From a virus, in IMG/VR virus record IMGVR_UViG_3300037451_000035, positions 10,497-74,496 of that record: a stretch of DNA of 64,000 nt; one strand, given 5' to 3'. The notes under the pieces are model-generated. The model made no database searches and was not told the DNA's origin. It was given only the letters and a program-made list of their open reading frames with translations. This document shows positions 49,309 through 57,052 of the stretch, one piece after another (position 1 is the first letter of the stretch; every line of letters begins with the position of its first letter). The position numbers and the translations under genes are program-made.

Positions 49309-51243
49309 TTATCGTCGGGTATTGCGCACGCTGGAATCGTCGAAGCGCCCGCTCGCATATTGCCGGGTCGGCCCGGCGAACGGATACATCCAGACGCGCG
49401 AATCGCCGCGATATTCGATAACCGTGTGGCCCGATTCCCCACGCCGTCTGATAGGAAGCAACTCACCATTCGGCGCGGTCGATGGACTTAGGGCATCCTT
49501 GCGCGCGTCTTCGAAAACCTGATCGCGCACTTCGCCGAACGAGGCATCGTCGGCAAATGCCGATGAGACGTCCTTGTCTTTCCAGCGCGGCGAATGGGAT
49601 TTGAGATCGCGAACAATGCGTCGCTCGTAGATTTGGACGGTATCTCCGGCTTGCGGCCGGGGAGCGTATTTCCCAAACAGCGAATAGATTTCGTCGGCTC
49701 GCGCCTGCGAATCCTGTAGCGCGTGGAAGTCGGGATCGCCGAGGCTCTTCGGAATCAGGCCCTCCAGCCGCTTGATCTCATCGCGGAGCGAAGCGGAATC
49801 CTTTTTGGCCTTGTCCTCGCGCTCCTTGCGCTCTTTTTCTTCCTTTTCCTCCGCGTCTTTTTTGGCCTTGTCGGCCGCGGCCTTTTCGGCCTCTTCCTTC
49901 TCCTTAGCGGATTTTTCGTCCGCGTCCTTCTTGGCCGCGTCGTCCCGCTCCTTGTCCTTGCCCTCGACCGCGTCGAGGCGCTTGCCGAACGCGTCCAGCT
50001 TGGTATGCGCGGAATCGACATGCGAGAGGATTTTGTCGAGCTTCTCGCCAACGCTGGCGTCGCCGGCATCCTTCTTCGCCGCGGCGTCATTCTCGGCTTT
50101 TTCCTTGTCCTCAGCATCCTTCTTGGCCTTGGCGTCGGCGGCGGCCTTTTCCTCGGCGTCTTTCTTCGCCTTCGCGTCGGCTGCGGCTTTCTCTTCAGCT
50201 TCAGTCATTGAATCCTCTCTCGATTCGCTTCGGATGCCAGCGGGCTCGCCGCCCTTGTCCCAGACGCCCAACTCGCAAATGGCAATGTGGTCGACGAGGC
50301 TCGGATCGCCTTCGAACAGAACCACTTTGCCATCGTCAAGGGTGATTTTCGTATTGACGGAGAAGTTCGCGAAGTTCACCCCAGGCGATGTTGAAAGCCC
50401 CTCCTTCGCCATCAGGTCCGCGACTTCGTCAATCCAGATTTTGACGATCGCCCAGACCTCATCGCCGGCAACATACGGCAAAAAGACCGTTCCTACAATA
50501 CGCTTAGAAAATTCCTCCGCATTTAGGATCGGCGCCTCTTTCGGGTGCTTGAAGATGACGGGCAGGCCGTTGCAGCGGGCGAGAAATTCCGAGTTTAAAT
50601 AAAGCGTAGGATCCCGGTGCACGAACTCTTCGTGCTTGGGCCGATAGGCGACGTTGGTGCCGGTGATGCGAATCGCGAAAAGCCAAATGTTCTCGTACTT
50701 TTGCGGGCTGGTCAGCCGGCCGTCAGCAATGGCGCGGGCGACCCCCAATTCGTTCATGTCGAGGCGGTCGAGAGCAATCCGGCACCCGGGGTGCAATGGC
50801 TCCGGCGGTGAGTCGATCGGCGCCCAGGCATAGCCATCGTGCTCGGAATTGAGGTCCGGGATAAATTCGTTCGTCACCCGCTGGATGAAGGTCGTGTAAT
50901 CGACATCCGGCATGACGGCCGGCACCAGCGTGGGCGCGGCTTCAGCGGGCGTGGGCGGGACCGGCGAAACAGGGCGTAACTCCGGCCCCGCCGACCCAAC
51001 CCCGACGCCATAGGACGACGGGGAAGCCGTGCGAGTGTGAATGAAGCGCTTGCCTTCGGGCAGGAACCCGATCTCTTCGCGGGTCTCGCGAATGGCGGTA
51101 ATCTCGGCTGTCTCGGTGGCGCCCTCCTGGGCGCCACCGGGAAAATCCCACGCACCAGGAAAATCGGGCGCGCTCTCCGTGCGGCGCAGGAATAGCGCGT
51201 TGCCGTTATTCGAGACGAACAAGATGCCTGCGGCCTTGCTCAT
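49309..51243 (-). CDS. NUDIX + DUF2213 prohead protease/scaffold fusion
   Basis: Nudix box GGAQEGATETAEITAIRETREEIG; RITGT, HP, LSTSP, VDHIAICELGVWDKGG; K/D/A/E-rich scaffold. Confidence 0.85.
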   Translation of the reverse strand: MSKAAGILFVSNNGNALFLRRTESAPDFPGAWDFPGGAQEGATETAEITAIRETREEIGFLPEGKRFIHTRTASPSSYGVGVGSAGPELRPVSPVPPTPAEAAPTLVPAVMPDVDYTTFIQRVTNEFIPDLNSEHDGYAWAPIDSPPEPLHPGCRIALDRLDMNELGVARAIADGRLTSPQKYENIWLFAIRITGTNVAYRPKHEEFVHRDPTLYLNSEFLARCNGLPVIFKHPKEAPILNAEEFSKRIVGTVFLPYVAGDEVWAIVKIWIDEVADLMAKEGLSTSPGVNFANFSVNTKITLDDGKVVLFEGDPSLVDHIAICELGVWDKGGEPAGIRSESREDSMTEAEEKAAADAKAKKDAEEKAAADAKAKKDAEDKEKAENDAAAKKDAGDASVGEKLDKILSHVDSAHTKLDAFGKRLDAVEGKDKERDDAAKKDADEKSAKEKEEAEKAAADKAKKDAEEKEEKERKEREDKAKKDSASLRDEIKRLEGLIPKSLGDPDFHALQDSQARADEIYSLFGKYAPRPQAGDTVQIYERRIVRDLKSHSPRWKDKDVSSAFADDASFGEVRDQVFEDARKDALSPSTAPNGELLPIRRRGESGHTVIEYRGDSRVWMYPFAGPTRQYASGRFDDSSVRNTRR

Positions 51244-51976: not shown

Positions 51977-52064
51977 CCCCGCCTCCGAGTGTGTGCTATA
52001 CCACGGCGGAACCTTGCTCGTCAGCCGGAGTTTTAGAGGCAGGGCCACAATGGCGGAGGAAGCC

Positions 52065-52313
52065 ATGTGCTTTTCATTGGCATGGGTCGAGCAGCTTTGC
52101 ATCTACCTGATTTTCGTGATCGGTATCATCGCCATTATCCGCCTGCTGGTGCCGTGGGCGCTCGCGCAATTGGGCGGTGGAGGCGGAATTATCGCCGGCA
52201 TCATCAATATCGTCTTGTGGATGGTCGTCGCGATCTTCGTCGTCTATCTGGTCTTTGCGCTGCTCGCTTGCGTGGTCGGGGGCGGCGGCCTGCCGCTCTT
52301 CCCGCATCACTAA
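52065..52313 (+). CDS. Two-TM membrane protein inserted against the operon direction
   Basis: GGAGGA RBS; two long hydrophobic helices. Confidence 0.7.
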   Translation: MCFSLAWVEQLCIYLIFVIGIIAIIRLLVPWALAQLGGGGGIIAGIINIVLWMVVAIFVVYLVFALLACVVGGGGLPLFPHH

Positions 52314-52585
52314 TCCGGCAAGTGCATCGAGCAAAACCAGAACGATTCGTCCCGAATCGAAGCGCTTCCTTGCATCGAGCCAAGCACCATTTCGCGCACC
52401 GCTGGCGCACCGCATACGCAACACCGATAGATCAGCCGCCGCGGGCGCGGCGCATTGTCATTGGCGATCTCGGGGAGCCACCAGACCTTCCGATAGCCTT
52501 TGTGGAATTGCACGCCGGCGCCATAGGTCAGCGAGCCCAGCGGCAAATCGCAAATCGTGCGTGTCTCGACGCCGATCAAGTGCAT
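52310..52585 (-). CDS. Hypothetical protein (Cys/His motif)
   Basis: CCVCG...FCSMH. Confidence 0.45.
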   Translation of the reverse strand: MHLIGVETRTICDLPLGSLTYGAGVQFHKGYRKVWWLPEIANDNAPRPRRLIYRCCVCGAPAVREMVLGSMQGSASIRDESFWFCSMHLPD

Positions 52586-52587
52586 CG

Positions 52588-54705
52588 TTAAGCCTCTTCC
52601 AATTGCGCCCGCAACCGCGCCAGCCGCATCGCCATTGCCTGATAGCCGACGGCCGGGCGGGGAATTTCCTCGAGCGCGTCGGCGCGCGCGGCCTCGAAGC
52701 GCTCGCAATGGCCGGCGCGCTGAATAGGCCCAATCACCAGCGTGCACGCGTGGCCGCCCGGCGCATTGGCGTCGGTGCGCACAAACATCGAACACTTCTG
52801 GCATTGGGTGGAGAGATCGCCCCAGAACTCGACGTATTCGACTTCGCCTTTGGACATGGTGGCGGCATCCTTTCGCGCGCTGTCCGCCCGGCCTTTGCGC
52901 GCGGCGCGGACCTCTTCCATTCCTTGCACTGAGGCCAGCGCCTTCTTGCCTTTCGCCGTCAGCATGTCCTCGGGCAAGTCTCTCAAATTGTATTTGTAGA
53001 TGTAATAGCAGTTGTGGGATAGGATGCCGTCAGCGACGTACCACCCTTCCTCAGTTTCGAGATTATAGACATGCCCCGCAAAAAAATTCCGCTGAATGTC
53101 TACGACCTTGCCGAATCGTACCGTAGCGGCGTCGATGCCATGGTGCTTGCAGAGCAATTCCAAATTTCCGACGCTACTATTCGTAGGCGTCTTCGAGAGG
53201 CGGGAGTCGCAATCCGCAACAAATCCGAAGCCAAGATCAATCTCGGCGACACGGTTGATCTTCCCGATGGCGAGATCATCGCGGCTTATCTCAGCGGAAC
53301 TAGTCCTGATGTTCTCGCTGCCGATTACGGCACTTGCGCAGACACCATTCGACGTCGCGTAGAGCGAGCCGGAGTGACATTGCGCGACGGTTCGGCAGCT
53401 CAACGACTTCGCATTCTCAACGAGACCACAGATATCAAAGTTGCGAGAGCAAAACGCATGAGCGCTCTCCATCGCGGCAAGCCAAAGTCGGACGCTATGC
53501 TTGAAAAGCGTGCGCGCGGCAGAACGAGCAAACTCGGCATTGGCGAAATGGAATTGGCGACGGCGCTTCAGGCCGCAGGAATGGCGCCCGACCCGCAACG
53601 TCCGGTCGGTCGATACAATATCGACATCGCTATTGGCGACACCGTCGCCGTGGAATTGTTCACCGGTTCCGACAGCAGCACTAGAACGCCCCGTCTGCTG
53701 AAGAAATTCAAATATCTGCGCGATCTCGGGTATTGCGTCATTTTCATTCAGATGAGCAGACGACTGGACAATCTCGTTAGCACTCTCGACCAAGTCATCG
53801 CCCACATTCAACGCATTGGCGGCGATCCAGCCTTGCACCGCAAGTATTGGGTGATTCGGTGTCAATCTGAGAGATTTACCCGAGGCCGTCGTAATCTGAA
53901 GAAGAACCCCGTGGTACGGCCGCCGATATATTCGACGCACGTTAGCGAATGGAATTTTCGTTGACCCCGGTACGCACCGGCAAAATGGTTCGACCGCAGG
54001 AGCGGTGATGTCGTCGACATAGCCGGGACGCCCAGGCTTCACCAAGCCCGCGCGGTGCGCCCATGAGTCGCGTATCAGATAAATCTTCTCGTCGCGATCT
54101 TTATGGTCGGGTCGGTAATCGTATCCGGGCTGTCGCCAATGACTCCGCCACATACCAGCAATTGCCCCGCCGTCGGATGCGATCACATCGTTGATCGAAG
54201 CAACAAGCTTTGCGCCTTGGTCAATTAAGACCCTGCGTTCTTCGAACGGCAATTGCGCCAGCCCCTTGCGCACGGTCTTGCGAACCTCGGCTTTCGTCTC
54301 CGCCGAAACGCCGCCCGGCGGGACCGACGTGGCCCAGCCCTGGAACCGGCGGAGCGTCGAGTCGATCGCTTCGGCCCGATTGAGCCGAATCAGATTGGAC
54401 GAGGCCATGATGCGGCGGTCGAGTTCGGGGCGGAGCGCCGGCTTCAGCCGCTCGAAGGTAAAGCGCTCGATGCCGGGGTTGAATTTCAAGAGGCCGTTGT
54501 TCTCGACCATCTTGCGATAGATCGAGGCCAGCCCTTCGCGCAGCCGTTCCTCCAGCGACTCGGGGGCGACCAGCGAGCGCTCGGCGGCAATGCGGATCAG
54601 GCGGGCCCACTTTTCGACGCGATCGATGCTGTCAAAGCCGTGCTCGGTCAGATCGTCGACCGCGGCGGAAAGCACGGAATAGAAATCGTCGCCGCTCTTC
54701 GGCAT
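52588..54705 (-). CDS. Head morphogenesis protein (Mu gpF/SPP1 gp7-like) with intein and C-terminal HiPIP-like domain
   Basis: Follows the portal; WRSHW...R.DH..RD, P.VEPFCR|C(YY) motif split by the intein. Confidence 0.88.
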   Translation of the reverse strand: MPKSGDDFYSVLSAAVDDLTEHGFDSIDRVEKWARLIRIAAERSLVAPESLEERLREGLASIYRKMVENNGLLKFNPGIERFTFERLKPALRPELDRRIMASSNLIRLNRAEAIDSTLRRFQGWATSVPPGGVSAETKAEVRKTVRKGLAQLPFEERRVLIDQGAKLVASINDVIASDGGAIAGMWRSHWRQPGYDYRPDHKDRDEKIYLIRDSWAHRAGLVKPGRPGYVDDITAPAVEPFCRCVPGSTKIPFANVRRIYRRPYHGVLLQITTASGKSLRLTPNHPILAVQGWIAANALNVGDDLVESANEIVQSSAHLNENDAIPEIAQIFEFLQQTGRSSAAVGTGEQFHGDGVANSDVDIVSTDRTLRVGRHSCGLKRRRQFHFANAEFARSAARTLFKHSVRLWLAAMESAHAFCSRNFDICGLVENAKSLSCRTVAQCHSGSLYATSNGVCASAVIGSENIRTSSAEISRDDLAIGKINRVAEIDLGFGFVADCDSRLSKTPTNSSVGNLELLCKHHGIDAATVRFGKVVDIQRNFFAGHVYNLETEEGWYVADGILSHNCYYIYKYNLRDLPEDMLTAKGKKALASVQGMEEVRAARKGRADSARKDAATMSKGEVEYVEFWGDLSTQCQKCSMFVRTDANAPGGHACTLVIGPIQRAGHCERFEAARADALEEIPRPAVGYQAMAMRLARLRAQLEEA
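53011..53976 (-). mobile_element. Intein (322 aa)
   Basis: Begins CVPGST; block B LTPNHPIL; block F HVYNLETE; ends SHN followed by Cys+1. Confidence 0.92.
53071..53964 (+). CDS. Tandem-HTH + Vsr/DUF559-like endonuclease encoded antisense within the intein
   Basis: Two HTH repeats (Y.SG....LA..F..S..TIRRRL..AGV..R); GEMELA.AL...G...Q.PVGRYNIDIAI...VAVEL...LRDLGYCVIFI. Confidence 0.8.
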   Translation: MPRKKIPLNVYDLAESYRSGVDAMVLAEQFQISDATIRRRLREAGVAIRNKSEAKINLGDTVDLPDGEIIAAYLSGTSPDVLAADYGTCADTIRRRVERAGVTLRDGSAAQRLRILNETTDIKVARAKRMSALHRGKPKSDAMLEKRARGRTSKLGIGEMELATALQAAGMAPDPQRPVGRYNIDIAIGDTVAVELFTGSDSSTRTPRLLKKFKYLRDLGYCVIFIQMSRRLDNLVSTLDQVIAHIQRIGGDPALHRKYWVIRCQSERFTRGRRNLKKNPVVRPPIYSTHVSEWNFR

Positions 54706-55474: not shown

Positions 55475-57052
55475 TCAAGCCCGCGGAGGATGCGCGCCGT
55501 TACCTTTGCGGTTCAAGGCTTTCGGTGGCCGCTCGCGCGATTGCATCATGGCGACGAGATCGCCCACCGATTCGTCGTAGGCCGCACGCCCGCGCTTCGG
55601 TCGAGTGCGCGCCGAATCGGCCGCCGCAAACGGCTTCGGCATGTTCGGCCCCTCGACCGGCACCGGCGGCTCGTAATCGCGCAGCGCTTCAATGTCGAGA
55701 ATGATCTTGTTTTGAAACAGGAACTCGTTCTCGTTGATCGTATCGCACGCCCATTCGATCAGCGTCGCCTTGTTCTCCGGGTCGAGCTCTGGCGCCAGCA
55801 CTTCGACCCAGGCGATCGCCGCCTTCAGCTTGACGTCGTCGGTCTTGACCTTCTCGCTGTCCGGCTCCTTCAGCAGATTCGGCCATTCCGCCTTGAAGCT
55901 GTTGGCCCAGCGATAGAACGCGTCGTCGAACTCGACGTCGGCATATTCGGGAAATTCGTTTTGCACCGCCTGATAAAATTCCTTCGTCCAGGCGCGGCGC
56001 ATGACGATCGGATCGAAGAAGTCATAGACCGGCTGCAGATCGCGGCGGAACGAATCAATATAGCCGGCGACAAGCTTGGCGTCCTCGGTGCCCTCGCCGA
56101 AGCCTTCCGCGAAAGTCTCTTGCTTCAGGATGATCGCCGGCATGTCGGCCGCGGTCGCGATGTTCTCCAGAATGTTCTCCCGCGCCATACCATAGGCGCC
56201 GTCGATATTCTGCATGTTGAGCGTCTCGATCTTCTCGTCGATGCCGATGCTGATCACGTTGTCATTGACGGCGGTCGCCTGCTTGATGAAAAGCCGCTTC
56301 ATCGCCGCCGAGGCCTGCATGATCTTGTCGATGATTGCGCCGGCCGTCTTCAGCATGGCGACAAAGACGCCCGCCTTCTTGGTGATCAGGTCGTCCGTCA
56401 TCATCGTCTGGATGAAGGATTTGAGCGGGAATAGCGCGCGCTGAAATACCGAGCGGCCGACGAAGCCGAAGGCCGACGCCGTATAGCTGATATAGACCGG
56501 GCGCTCGTGCATTAGCGTCACGGTGCGCGAGCGGTGAAAGACCTTGCCGTTTACCGCAATGCCGACGACCTTCATAAAGTCGATGGACAGCGGATCTTGA
56601 TTGAGCACCAGCGAGCCGGCGGTATTGAGCGGATCGAAGATCGACCATGCGATCGACAAGTCGGGGAGCTTCTTCAGCGGCAGCGGCGTGTCGGGGTCCA
56701 GCTTCTCGGCGACCAGCGCCAGCGAGCCGATGCCATAGGCGCGCGCGACGGACACCAGCGAATAGATCGCGCTGTCGACGCCGTCATTTTTCCATTGCTC
56801 GCGGAATTTATCCCGCACGCGCTCTTCGGGACTGTTGGGAATTGAAATTGTTCGCTCTTGGCTTTGGGCCGTCTTGATCGGCCCTTCCACCATTTTGCGC
56901 CCCAGTGGGTGGTATAACCACAAGGTCTTACAGGTTTCATAGGACGGCGGATCGCCCGGCTCGATATCGGGCGCGATCAGCAAATCGGTCAGCGCGTTGC
57001 CGAGGCCCGAGCCGTTGACGTTGACGGTGCTGCTGCGGAGAAATCCGAGCAC
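55475..57052 (-). CDS. Portal protein (DUF1073-like)
   Basis: Follows terL; ARAYG, GRSVFQR, IATAADMP...L...GFGEGTED. Confidence 0.88.
   Translation of the reverse strand: MLGFLRSSTVNVNGSGLGNALTDLLIAPDIEPGDPPSYETCKTLWLYHPLGRKMVEGPIKTAQSQERTISIPNSPEERVRDKFREQWKNDGVDSAIYSLVSVARAYGIGSLALVAEKLDPDTPLPLKKLPDLSIAWSIFDPLNTAGSLVLNQDPLSIDFMKVVGIAVNGKVFHRSRTVTLMHERPVYISYTASAFGFVGRSVFQRALFPLKSFIQTMMTDDLITKKAGVFVAMLKTAGAIIDKIMQASAAMKRLFIKQATAVNDNVISIGIDEKIETLNMQNIDGAYGMARENILENIATAADMPAIILKQETFAEGFGEGTEDAKLVAGYIDSFRRDLQPVYDFFDPIVMRRAWTKEFYQAVQNEFPEYADVEFDDAFYRWANSFKAEWPNLLKEPDSEKVKTDDVKLKAAIAWVEVLAPELDPENKATLIEWACDTINENEFLFQNKIILDIEALRDYEPPVPVEGPNMPKPFAAADSARTRPKRGRAAYDESVGDLVAMMQSRERPPKALNRKGNGAHPPRA

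What the first reader, a model, noticed from the sequence alone, without database searches (positions are those of the whole stretch)
53011..53976. Intein whose endonuclease is encoded on the opposite strand
Seen: the gpF gene holds a 322-aa intein with intact splicing motifs (C1, TPNH, VYNL, HN/C). Its central ~200 aa show no LAGLIDADG or HNH motif. The antisense strand has a 297-aa ORF (53071-53964), wholly inside the intein and in codon register with it. That ORF encodes two HTH repeats plus a Vsr/DUF559-like nuclease domain and overlaps both Hint halves. Established: intein homing endonucleases are normally in-frame parts of the intein polypeptide. Inference: this is a dual-coding selfish element, with splicing from one strand and homing from the other, which would uncouple nuclease expression from late transcription. 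The usual DG..H catalytic motif reads ELFTG here, so activity is uncertain.
Basis: partly seen in the sequence, partly recalled or inferred. Interest (0 to 1): 0.85.

Follow-up and report, generated by a model that had tools for sequence, protein, structure and literature searches.

The report
Intein with antisense-encoded nuclease gene
A soil phage's head-assembly gene carries a self-splicing intein, and the opposite DNA strand of that intein encodes a conserved DNA-cutting-type protein; this is real and widespread, but was first described in a 2025 preprint.

Summary
Window 52588-54705 (-) encodes a 705-aa MuF/gpF-like head protein. It contains a 322-aa class-1 intein (53011-53976) with C1, TPNH, VYNL and HN|C.

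In this GC-rich phage the open frame alone is not significant (P about 0.16). Other evidence carries the case:
- 27 intein loci from phages of 42-68% GC share the arrangement and register, and 26 have the ORF intact.
- In three independent clades, dN/dS in the central region is 0.04-0.29 for the antisense frame and 0.6-2.0 for the intein frame. The pattern reverses over the Hint blocks.
- Intein-less alleles exist (86% identical extein; EPFCRCYY), interleaved with intein-bearing ones on the extein tree.

Cleavage, homing and expression are untested. This copy lacks the His and second Asp of EDxHD and has a weak ribosome-binding site.

Gosselin et al. (bioRxiv 2025) already described antisense VSR-like endonucleases in actinophage minor-capsid inteins. 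This is therefore a new member of a known kind.

The parts
52588..54705 (-). MuF/gpF-like head morphogenesis precursor gene (705 aa, stop codon included). N-extein is 53977-54705; C-extein is 52588-53010.
   Evidence: ORF list. PHROG 324 and PHROG 15127. Relatives carry PF04233 Phage_Mu_F. An intein-less allele, P0190 (382 aa), is 86% and 76% identical over the two exteins.
53011..53976 (-). Class-1 intein, 322 aa (protein residues 244-565). Motifs: C1, TPNH (block B), VYNL (block F), HN + Cys+1.
53776..53976 (-). Hint N-lobe (intein residues 1-67, blocks A and B). This is antisense to the last helix and strand and the disordered tail of the + ORF.
   Evidence: pLDDT 73-91. The intein frame drives conservation here: syn(-) 169-245 against syn(+) 50-90 per 15 columns. 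Intein-frame dN/dS is 0.03-0.42.
53590..53745 (-). Intein residues 78-129. A moderately confident helix plus strands that include the conserved intein-frame motif QFHGDG...VDIV. This stretch is antisense to the nuclease core.
   Evidence: pLDDT 59-78. F351, H352 and D354 are invariant in A3.
53170..53589 (-). Mirror-coded linker of the intein polypeptide (intein residues 130-269). It has no recognisable domain and is probably largely unstructured.
   Evidence: pLDDT 26-58. No Pfam family. Intein-frame mean BLOSUM is about 0 or below, and dN/dS is 0.6-2.0.
53011..53169 (-). Hint C-lobe (intein residues 270-322, blocks F and G).
   Evidence: pLDDT 64-91. The intein frame drives conservation.
53071..53964 (+). 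Antisense, codon-register ORF of 297 aa: a putative homing endonuclease with HTH x2, a helical linker and a Vsr/EDxHD-fold nuclease.
   Evidence: ORF list. tblastn finds 122 phage records, and in all 14 loci fetched the match is antisense to a MuF/minor-capsid-type gene. phmmer finds 916 cluster representatives at E <= 1e-10. AF2 pLDDT 88.5. Antisense-frame dN/dS 0.04-0.43.
53098..53367 (+). Two helix-turn-helix modules (aa 10-43 and 66-99), the presumed DNA-recognition part.
53527..53865 (+). Vsr/EDxHD-type nuclease domain (aa 153-265). E159, D185 and E195 are present. The His (S202 here) and the second Asp (L209 here) of EDxHD are absent.
53644..53655 (.). 12-mer GTCGCCGTGGAA. It encodes + V-A-V-E (nuclease acidic core) and - F-H-G-D (a conserved intein-frame motif), and both frames constrain it.
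   Evidence: A single codon is used in 10-12 of 12 diverse loci at each of the four codons. Other conserved Ala, Gly and Val columns use 3-4 codons.
53848..53862 (.). + W-V-I-R-C is the mirror of intein block B, P-H-N-P-T (TPNHP read backwards).
   Evidence: Family variation at these + positions ([RWG][VM][IV][RWG][GCSR]) equals the antisense codon sets of P, H, N, P and T.
53056..53073 (+). Translation start region of the + ORF, embedded in intein block F. The ATG mirrors the His codon of GHVYNL. The upstream GAGAT mirrors N-L.
   Evidence: The ATG sits at the same column in most loci. An SD-like GAGGT or GGAGG lies 8-9 nt upstream in many homologs (duplex -7 to -10.5 kcal/mol) but only GAGAT here (-3.0).

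Best explanation
The phage's MuF/gpF head-morphogenesis gene is interrupted by a class-1 intein that carries a second, real gene on its complementary strand.

The - strand is translated with the late genes into a precursor. The two Hint lobes (intein residues 1 to about 129, and 270-322) excise the intein and join ...EPFCR to CYY.... The roughly 140 residues between the lobes are not a domain. They are the mirror image of the other gene and only need to stay free of stop codons.

The + strand ORF (297 aa) encodes two HTH DNA-binding modules, a helical linker and a Vsr/EDxHD-type nuclease domain related to the homing endonuclease I-Bth0305I. The most likely role, which is inferred and not shown, is a homing endonuclease. 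It would cut intein-less MuF alleles near the FCR|C codons during co-infection, so that repair copies the intein and nuclease gene together.

The two genes sit in the one antisense phase where each frame only has to avoid TTA, CTA and TCA. They truly overlap at both ends. The nuclease's start codon and ribosome-binding site lie in block F. Its last helix and strand lie over block B and the N-lobe. Its acidic core (VAVE) shares fixed codons with an intein-frame FHGD motif.

Shown: both frames are open, the fold, homology, frame-specific selection in relatives, and a sporadic intein distribution with natural empty sites. Inferred: translation of this particular copy, nuclease activity, target site and homing.
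For: Anatomy and register.

Conservation:
- 122 phage records by tblastn. In all 14 loci fetched the match is antisense to a MuF/minor-capsid-type gene, with both frames open in register 0, across GC 42-68%.
- P(open by chance) is about 1e-5 in each of four low-GC phages.
- 2273 cluster representatives at E <= 1e-3 and 916 at E <= 1e-10.

Selection:
- Codon-position switch in the Gordonia trio.
- The 12-locus column table shows + residues conserved with free synonymous codons at +12-228, and the reverse at the ends.
- Gordonia: dN/dS in the central region is 0.20-0.29 for the antisense frame against 0.62-0.71 for the intein frame.
- Jersey-like phages: 0.04-0.15 against 1.0-2.0.
- Soil relatives: 0.19-0.28 against 1.0-1.3.
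- Window against those soil relatives: 0.31-0.43 against 0.69-0.95.

Mobility signature:
- Intein GC is 51-57% against 62-67% in the flanks.
- An intein-less allele has 86% identical extein, and there is a natural EPFCRCYY site.
- 12 of 80 related IMG/VR MuF loci carry the intein.
- On the extein tree the 13 intein-bearing rows (those 12 plus the window) are interleaved with 10 intein-less rows in one clade. This needs at least 5 gains or losses, with at least 3 forced by well-supported branches.

Literature: the same architecture is reported in actinophage minor-capsid inteins.
Against: - No expression evidence. No RNA run holds the sequence.
- No sigma-70-like promoter was found on the + strand in 52500-54300. 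The SD of this copy is weak (GAGAT, -3.0 kcal/mol).
- Active site. The Vsr His69 / I-Bth0305I His213 equivalent is Ser here (His in only 25 of 63 relatives). The Asp222 equivalent is not conserved in the family. Catalysis, if any, must differ from that of Vsr.
- In this GC-rich phage the open antisense frame is not significant by itself (P about 0.16).
- No relative close enough to measure selection on this lineage alone was found. dS against the nearest loci is near saturation.
- One relative (L027) has a stop in the antisense ORF while its intein frame stays open. The intein can therefore persist without the nuclease.
- dN/dS values in overlapping frames are not independent of each other.
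Confidence: 0.8

Rival explanations
1. The + ORF encodes a real, selected protein that is no longer, or never was, a nuclease. It could be a DNA-binding regulator or a decaying homing endonuclease that survives only because its codons are locked to the intein.
For: The His and second Asp of the EDxHD motif are missing in this copy and in most relatives. The SD is weak here. One relative has a premature stop after the AVE motif. The preprint notes that some VSR-like groups look vertically inherited.
Against: E159, Y182 and D185 are invariant and N183 and E195 nearly invariant across 63 diverse representatives; R/K212 is retained in all 63. Purifying selection extends over the whole nuclease domain. 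The intein is sporadically distributed among close relatives.
Confidence: 0.15
2. The + ORF is a non-coding shadow frame. Long antisense in-register ORFs arise for free in GC-rich genes because TTA, CTA and TCA codons are rare.
For: P(open) is about 0.16 in this phage. Other long antisense ORFs occur in the window, e.g. 55490-56434 + (314 aa) and 49772-50602 + (276 aa).
Against: The frame is open in low-GC phages at P about 1e-5 each. The + frame aligns full-length with higher scores than the - frame. Synonymous variation follows the + frame in the centre. The fold is confident and nuclease-like.
Confidence: 0.02
3. The canonical arrangement holds: the intein-frame centre is itself a novel in-frame endonuclease or DNA-binding domain, and the + ORF conservation is its shadow.
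For: PHROG 15127 aligns across the whole intein. The intein-frame motif QFHGDG...VDIV is invariant and moderately confident in AF2.
Against: Intein residues 130-269 have pLDDT 26-58 and no family match. Intein-frame dN/dS there is about 0.6-2.0. Its residues vary exactly as the antisense codon sets of conserved + residues, e.g. + G220 as GGN gives - P/A/T/S.
Confidence: 0.03

Closest known systems
Anti-sense VSR-like HEN inteins of actinobacteriophage minor capsid (MuF-like) proteins (Gosselin, Arsenault & Gogarten, bioRxiv 10.1101/2025.01.02.630785)
   Different: The window is an uncultivated soil phage of unknown host. Its intein sits two codons downstream of the usual N|CRC or F|CRC site. 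The preprint surveyed PhagesDB only, and the word 'synonymous' does not occur in its main text. The data here add frame-specific selection, the mirror motifs and occurrence in Salmonella, Escherichia, Klebsiella, Pseudomonas, Vibrio, Haemophilus and other phages.
I-Bth0305I and the EDxHD (Vsr-like) homing endonuclease family (Taylor et al. 2011, PMC3239194; Dassa et al. 2009, PMC2677866)
   Different: Known members are intron-encoded, free-standing, or lie between split-intein halves on fractured genes, and are not reported as antisense. This clade lacks a conserved His213 and Asp222 equivalent. Activity is untested.
Antisense LAGLIDADG ORFs in inteins (Gorbalenya 1998 and Gogarten et al. 2002, as cited in the preprint)
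   Same: A contiguous intein with the endonuclease ORF on the complementary strand.
   Different: A different nuclease family. I did not examine those sequences here.
Canonical bifunctional inteins (e.g. PI-SceI, PI-PfuI)
   Same: A Hint splicing domain interrupted at the same topological position by endonuclease-coding DNA. The element behaves as a unit.
   Different: In those, the endonuclease is an in-frame domain of the intein polypeptide and is made in 1:1 ratio with the host protein. Here the two are separate polypeptides from opposite strands.

Membership tests
Class-1 intein (Hint domain) | N-terminal Cys/Ser nucleophile and block B T-x-x-H | tested here: met
   C244 (intein residue 1) and T282-P-N-H285 are invariant in 30 relatives.
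Class-1 intein (Hint domain) | Block G penultimate His and terminal Asn, followed by Cys/Ser/Thr +1 | tested here: met
   ...SHN|C. N565 and C566 are invariant.
Class-1 intein (Hint domain) | Hint fold | tested here: met
Class-1 intein (Hint domain) | Protein splicing activity | not testable with these tools
   Inferred only, from intact motifs and the essential host gene.
EDxHD / Vsr-like homing endonucleases (I-Bth0305I type) | Vsr-type nuclease fold and sequence relatedness | tested here: met
EDxHD / Vsr-like homing endonucleases (I-Bth0305I type) | Motif residues E (E170), D (D196) and the extra acidic residue | tested here: met
   E159, D185 and E195. E159 and D185 are invariant and E195 is in 62 of 63 relatives.
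EDxHD / Vsr-like homing endonucleases (I-Bth0305I type) | Motif His (H213; Vsr H69) and second Asp (D222; Vsr D97) | tested here: not met
   These align to S202 and L209 in the window ORF. His occurs in 25 of 63 relatives. There is no conserved Asp at the D222 column.
EDxHD / Vsr-like homing endonucleases (I-Bth0305I type) | Site-specific cleavage at the empty allele | not testable with these tools
Natural empty sites were identified.
Antisense VSR-like HEN intein (Gosselin et al. 2025) | A contiguous intein in a MuF/minor capsid gene with a Vsr-like ORF on the complementary strand | tested here: met
   Homologous ORFs lie antisense to the MuF-like genes of Gordonia phages Fosterous, Vivi2 and Angelicage.
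Homing (mobile) genetic element | Sporadic presence or absence among closely related host genes | tested here: met
   12 of 80 related IMG/VR loci carry the intein. At least 5 changes are needed on the extein tree. The sister pair L030/L049 (without) against L082 has 100/100 support. P0190 is an intein-less allele at 86% identity.
Homing (mobile) genetic element | Super-Mendelian inheritance in crosses | not testable with these tools
   Needs mixed infections.
MuF / SPP1 gp7 head morphogenesis protein | Family profile match and position next to the portal gene | tested here: met
   phrog_324 at E 1.8e-15. The portal (phrog_146) lies two small ORFs upstream at 55475-57052. Pfam PF04233 does not hit this protein directly but labels aligned relatives.

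The most novel reading that the evidence does not exclude
The nuclease family may exist only as the mirror image of this intein family, with the two genes interlocked.

- At least 97 of 152 database representatives carry the exact antisense image of block B. Most of the rest carry one-residue variants of it.
- The nuclease's acidic core (VAVE) and an intein-frame FHGD motif share fixed codons.
- The nuclease's start codon and SD are built from block F.

Such an interlock would slow the usual decay of homing endonuclease genes. Antisense placement could also make late MuF transcription silence the nuclease, restricting it to early infection.
Probability: 0.25. Interest if true: 0.7.

Novelty: new member of a known kind. 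Interest (0 to 1): 0.5.

Why it matters
It confirms that inteins can carry their endonuclease as a separate gene on the other strand. That supports the 'splicing domain first, free-standing endonuclease invades later' view of intein evolution.

The evidence here goes beyond the survey that first described the arrangement:
- frame-by-frame selection evidence that the antisense gene is translated;
- its presence well outside actinophages, including well-studied Salmonella, E. coli, Klebsiella, Pseudomonas and Aggregatibacter phages. Its annotation status was not checked: in the records fetched, only the host gene is listed under the match;
- short stretches where both strands are constrained at once.

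In practice, gene callers miss these ORFs, so they are under-represented in protein databases. The cultivable carriers make expression, cleavage and homing directly testable.

Tried and rejected
- Single-sequence locus searches in genome contigs and viral contigs found no relative.
- Alignment A1 was too diverse for pattern search.
The genomic context of P0001-P0003 and of the 150 representatives could therefore not be read. Their intein nesting was inferred from the mirror motif instead.
- Sequencing runs: no RNA holder was listed. Laying contigs of four soil runs showed only the same intein-bearing phage: short identical contigs cross both junctions, with no intein-less joint. The one joint listed (52707 to 53766, side 21, at 80% likeness) is not at the intein borders and was disregarded.
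- The promoter scan found nothing on either strand in 52500-54300. This is not evidence of absence for a phage of unknown host.
- Foldseek alone gave no hit at E <= 0.001 for the full-length + ORF model, because the nuclease domain is only a third of it. VIA alignment and a domain profile resolved this.
- A literature search for 'intein' + 'MuF' returned nothing relevant.
- I considered whether the intein-frame FHGD motif is a mere shadow of + VAVE. I rejected that because all four codons are fixed at their + synonymous positions. Its role remains unexplained.
Full report
**What is there**

The window is part of a complete 74.5-kb IMG/VR virus record with terminal repeats. It also occurs in several soil metagenomes.

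On the - strand, 52588-54705 encodes a 705-aa protein in a late-operon-like block. The portal gene (phrog_146) lies at 55475-57052, two small ORFs upstream. The protein matches PHROG 324 'head morphogenesis' in its N-extein. It matches Pfam Intein_splicing above the curated cut-off.

The intein is residues 244-565, i.e. window 53011-53976 and 322 aa. It has CVPGST at the start, TPNH (block B), VYNL (block F) and SHN|C at the end. These residues are invariant in 30 aligned relatives. No LAGLIDADG or HNH family matches it.

On the + strand, 53071-53964 is a 297-aa ORF in exact codon register with the intein frame.

**Is it more than chance?**

Not on openness alone. In this 60% GC phage the three codons whose complements are stops (TTA, CTA, TCA) are rare. 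A 298-codon open mirror frame has P about 0.16, and other long antisense ORFs occur nearby.

The decisive evidence comes from relatives:
- tblastn of the + ORF against 50,697 phage records hits 122 of them at 25-31% identity, many over 80-95% of the length.
- In all 14 loci I fetched, the match is antisense to a MuF/minor-capsid-type gene (several are annotated only 'hypothetical protein'). Both frames are open and in register 0. These include Gordonia, Aaphi23, Idiomarinaceae, Klebsiella, Vibrio, Pseudomonas, Salmonella and Escherichia phages and an enrichment-culture virus, with GC 42-68%.
- In the four low-GC phages the chance of an open mirror frame is about 1e-5 each.
- A full HMMER scan of 1.84 billion cluster representatives finds 2273 relatives at E <= 1e-3 and 916 at E <= 1e-10, most about 280-300 aa.

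**What the + ORF encodes**

With a 63-sequence alignment, AlphaFold gives mean pLDDT 88.5. Residues 1-267 are confident and 268-297 are disordered. The model contains two three-helix HTH units (10-43 and 66-99), a helical linker and an alpha/beta domain (153-265).

By sequence:
- A domain-only profile hits 3r3p at E 1e-8 and 3hrl at E 1e-5.
- The full-length profile hits the two-HTH protein 2lvs at E 7.6e-9.
- Pfam alone gives only sub-threshold HTH and PF18741 matches.

Mapping onto I-Bth0305I (residue roles from PMC3239194):

| I-Bth0305I | Window + ORF | Status in the 63-sequence family alignment |
|---|---|---|
| E170 | E159 | invariant |
| D196 | D185 | invariant |
| extra acidic residue | E195 | 62 of 63 |
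| H213 | S202 | His in only 25 of 63 |
| D222 | L209 | not conserved |

R/K212 is retained in all 63 (Arg in 56, Lys in 7). This clade is related to EDxHD enzymes but does not meet the full motif, so nuclease activity is open.

**Which strand is under selection?**

Because the frames are in register, + codon position 3 is - position 1. Substitutions between three Gordonia phages were counted by MuF-frame codon position, pos1/2/3:

| Region | pos1/2/3 |
|---|---|
| N-extein | 2/0/39 |
| Hint blocks A-B | 1/0/9 |
| Intein residues 81-290 | 40/11/26, 49/8/28 and 51/13/37 (three pairs) |

A 12-locus codon alignment shows the same switch. From + residue 12 to about 228, + residues are conserved while their synonymous codons vary and the intein-frame residue drifts accordingly. 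For example, + G76 as GGA, GGC or GGG gives - S, A or P. At both ends the reverse holds: - N41 as AAT or AAC gives + I or V, and - H42 as CAC or CAT gives + V or M.

Nei-Gojobori dN/dS in the central region:

| Clade | Antisense frame | Intein frame |
|---|---|---|
| Gordonia | 0.20-0.29 | 0.62-0.71 |
| Jersey-like Salmonella/E. coli phages | 0.04-0.15 | 1.0-2.0 |
| Soil IMG/VR relatives of this MuF | 0.19-0.28 | 1.0-1.3 |
| Window against those soil relatives | 0.31-0.43 | 0.69-0.95 |

Over the Hint ends the intein frame has dN/dS of 0.0-0.4. These estimates are not independent between overlapping frames, but the contrast is consistent.

**True overlaps**

1. The + motif (Y)WVIRC at + residues 260-264 is the mirror of block B, TPNHP. 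Family variation there, [RWG][VM][IV][RWG][GCSR], is exactly the antisense codon sets of P, H, N, P and T. At least 97 of 152 database representatives carry this strict signature at the right distance from the nuclease core, against a chance rate of about 0.5% each. Most of the rest carry one-residue variants matching known block-B variants such as TVNHP. Hence most of the family, and perhaps nearly all of it, is intein-nested.

2. The + ATG mirrors the His codon of block F (GHVYNL). The N-L codons give an SD-like GAGGT 8-9 nt upstream in many homologs, but GAGAT here.

3. The 12-mer GTCGCCGTGGAA (53644-53655) encodes + VAVE and - FHGD. Each of the four codons is a single codon in 10-12 of 12 diverse loci, whereas other conserved Ala, Gly and Val columns use three or four codons. 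Both frames appear constrained there. What FHGD does in the intein is unexplained.

**Mobility signature**

- The intein is lower in GC than its exteins.
- Intein-less alleles are the majority. Searching shorter proteins finds 1409 relatives, including P0190 (382 aa, 86% and 76% identical over the exteins, from a 73.7-kb contig). P0191 reads EPFCRCYY at the site, exactly the predicted ligated junction.
- Of 80 related IMG/VR MuF loci, 12 carry an intein. Eleven of those have an intact antisense ORF. L027 has a stop right after AVELM while its intein frame stays open.
- On an extein tree all 13 intein-bearing rows fall in one 23-row clade (support 99/94), interleaved with 10 intein-less rows. 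This needs at least 5 gains or losses, with at least 3 forced by well-supported branches.
- This fits homing with occasional nuclease decay, though repeated precise loss is not excluded.

**What is known**

The window's ORF is 31% identical over 95% of its length to an antisense ORF in the MuF-like minor-capsid gene of Gordonia phage Fosterous, an actinobacteriophage of the kind that preprint surveyed. It is therefore a new member of a known, recently described kind.

What this analysis adds:
- frame-specific selection;
- the mirror motifs and the doubly constrained core;
- the start site embedded in block F;
- the wide host range of carriers;
- natural empty sites;
- a second insertion point.

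**Not shown**

Transcription and translation of the + ORF, nuclease activity, target, homing and splicing are all untested. No RNA data exist for this phage. The idea that antisense placement uncouples or times nuclease expression is plausible but untested.

Noticed in passing
window 53008-53013 and 53974-53982; alignment A3; loci L027-L093: Homologous inteins occupy two insertion points two codons apart in orthologous MuF genes. The window type is ...FCR|C-intein-HN|CYY. Most others are ...F|C-intein-HN|CRCY (or N|CRC). The ligated exteins are colinear (EPFCRCY...). This suggests that the element slid by 6 bp between two Cys codons, or re-homed.
   Followed up: partly
window 53644-53655: The intein-frame motif F-H-G-D (QFHGDG...VDIV) is fixed together with the nuclease's V-A-V-E through identical codons in phages from 42 to 68% GC. 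Its role in the intein is unknown. AF2 places it in a moderately confident strand/turn after the N-lobe.
   Followed up: partly
L027:2203-3069: One IMG/VR relative keeps an open intein frame but has a stop in the antisense ORF immediately after the AVELM core motif. This is an apparent example of endonuclease decay inside a still-intact intein.
   Followed up: partly
L012, L013, L014 (Salmonella phage LP31, Escherichia phage Snoke, Salmonella phage W5), L002 (Aaphi23), L009, L011: Public phage records list only the host gene under the match ('head morphogenesis', 'intein-containing capsid morphogenesis protein' or 'hypothetical protein'). Each holds an intact antisense HTH-nuclease ORF of 233-303 aa inside it; that ORF does not appear among the annotated features.
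   Followed up: partly
window 52050-52313 (+): A small + strand ORF (about 88 aa from ATGGCGGAGG...) with two or three hydrophobic helices and Gly runs sits between - strand genes, about 750 bp upstream of the antisense ORF. It has no PHROG match. If it is transcribed, read-through could supply + strand RNA over the intein.
   Followed up: no
window 49309-51243 (-): A 644-aa protein has an N-terminal NUDIX domain (phrog_1198), a phrog_6216 core and a long Lys/Glu/Ala-rich repeat region (AEEKAAADAKAKKDAE...). Some MuF relatives in the database are fused to NUDIX (PF00293).
   Followed up: no
window 52310-52582 (-): A 91-aa Cys-rich ORF (MHLIGVE...CCVCG...FWFCSMH) starts just beside the MuF stop codon. 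No function was assigned.
   Followed up: no
window 52640-52860 (-), C-extein: The C-extein's Cys/His cluster (QCQKCSMF...HACTLV...GHCERFE) is conserved in the intein-less allele P0190. It therefore belongs to the host protein, not to the intein.
   Followed up: no
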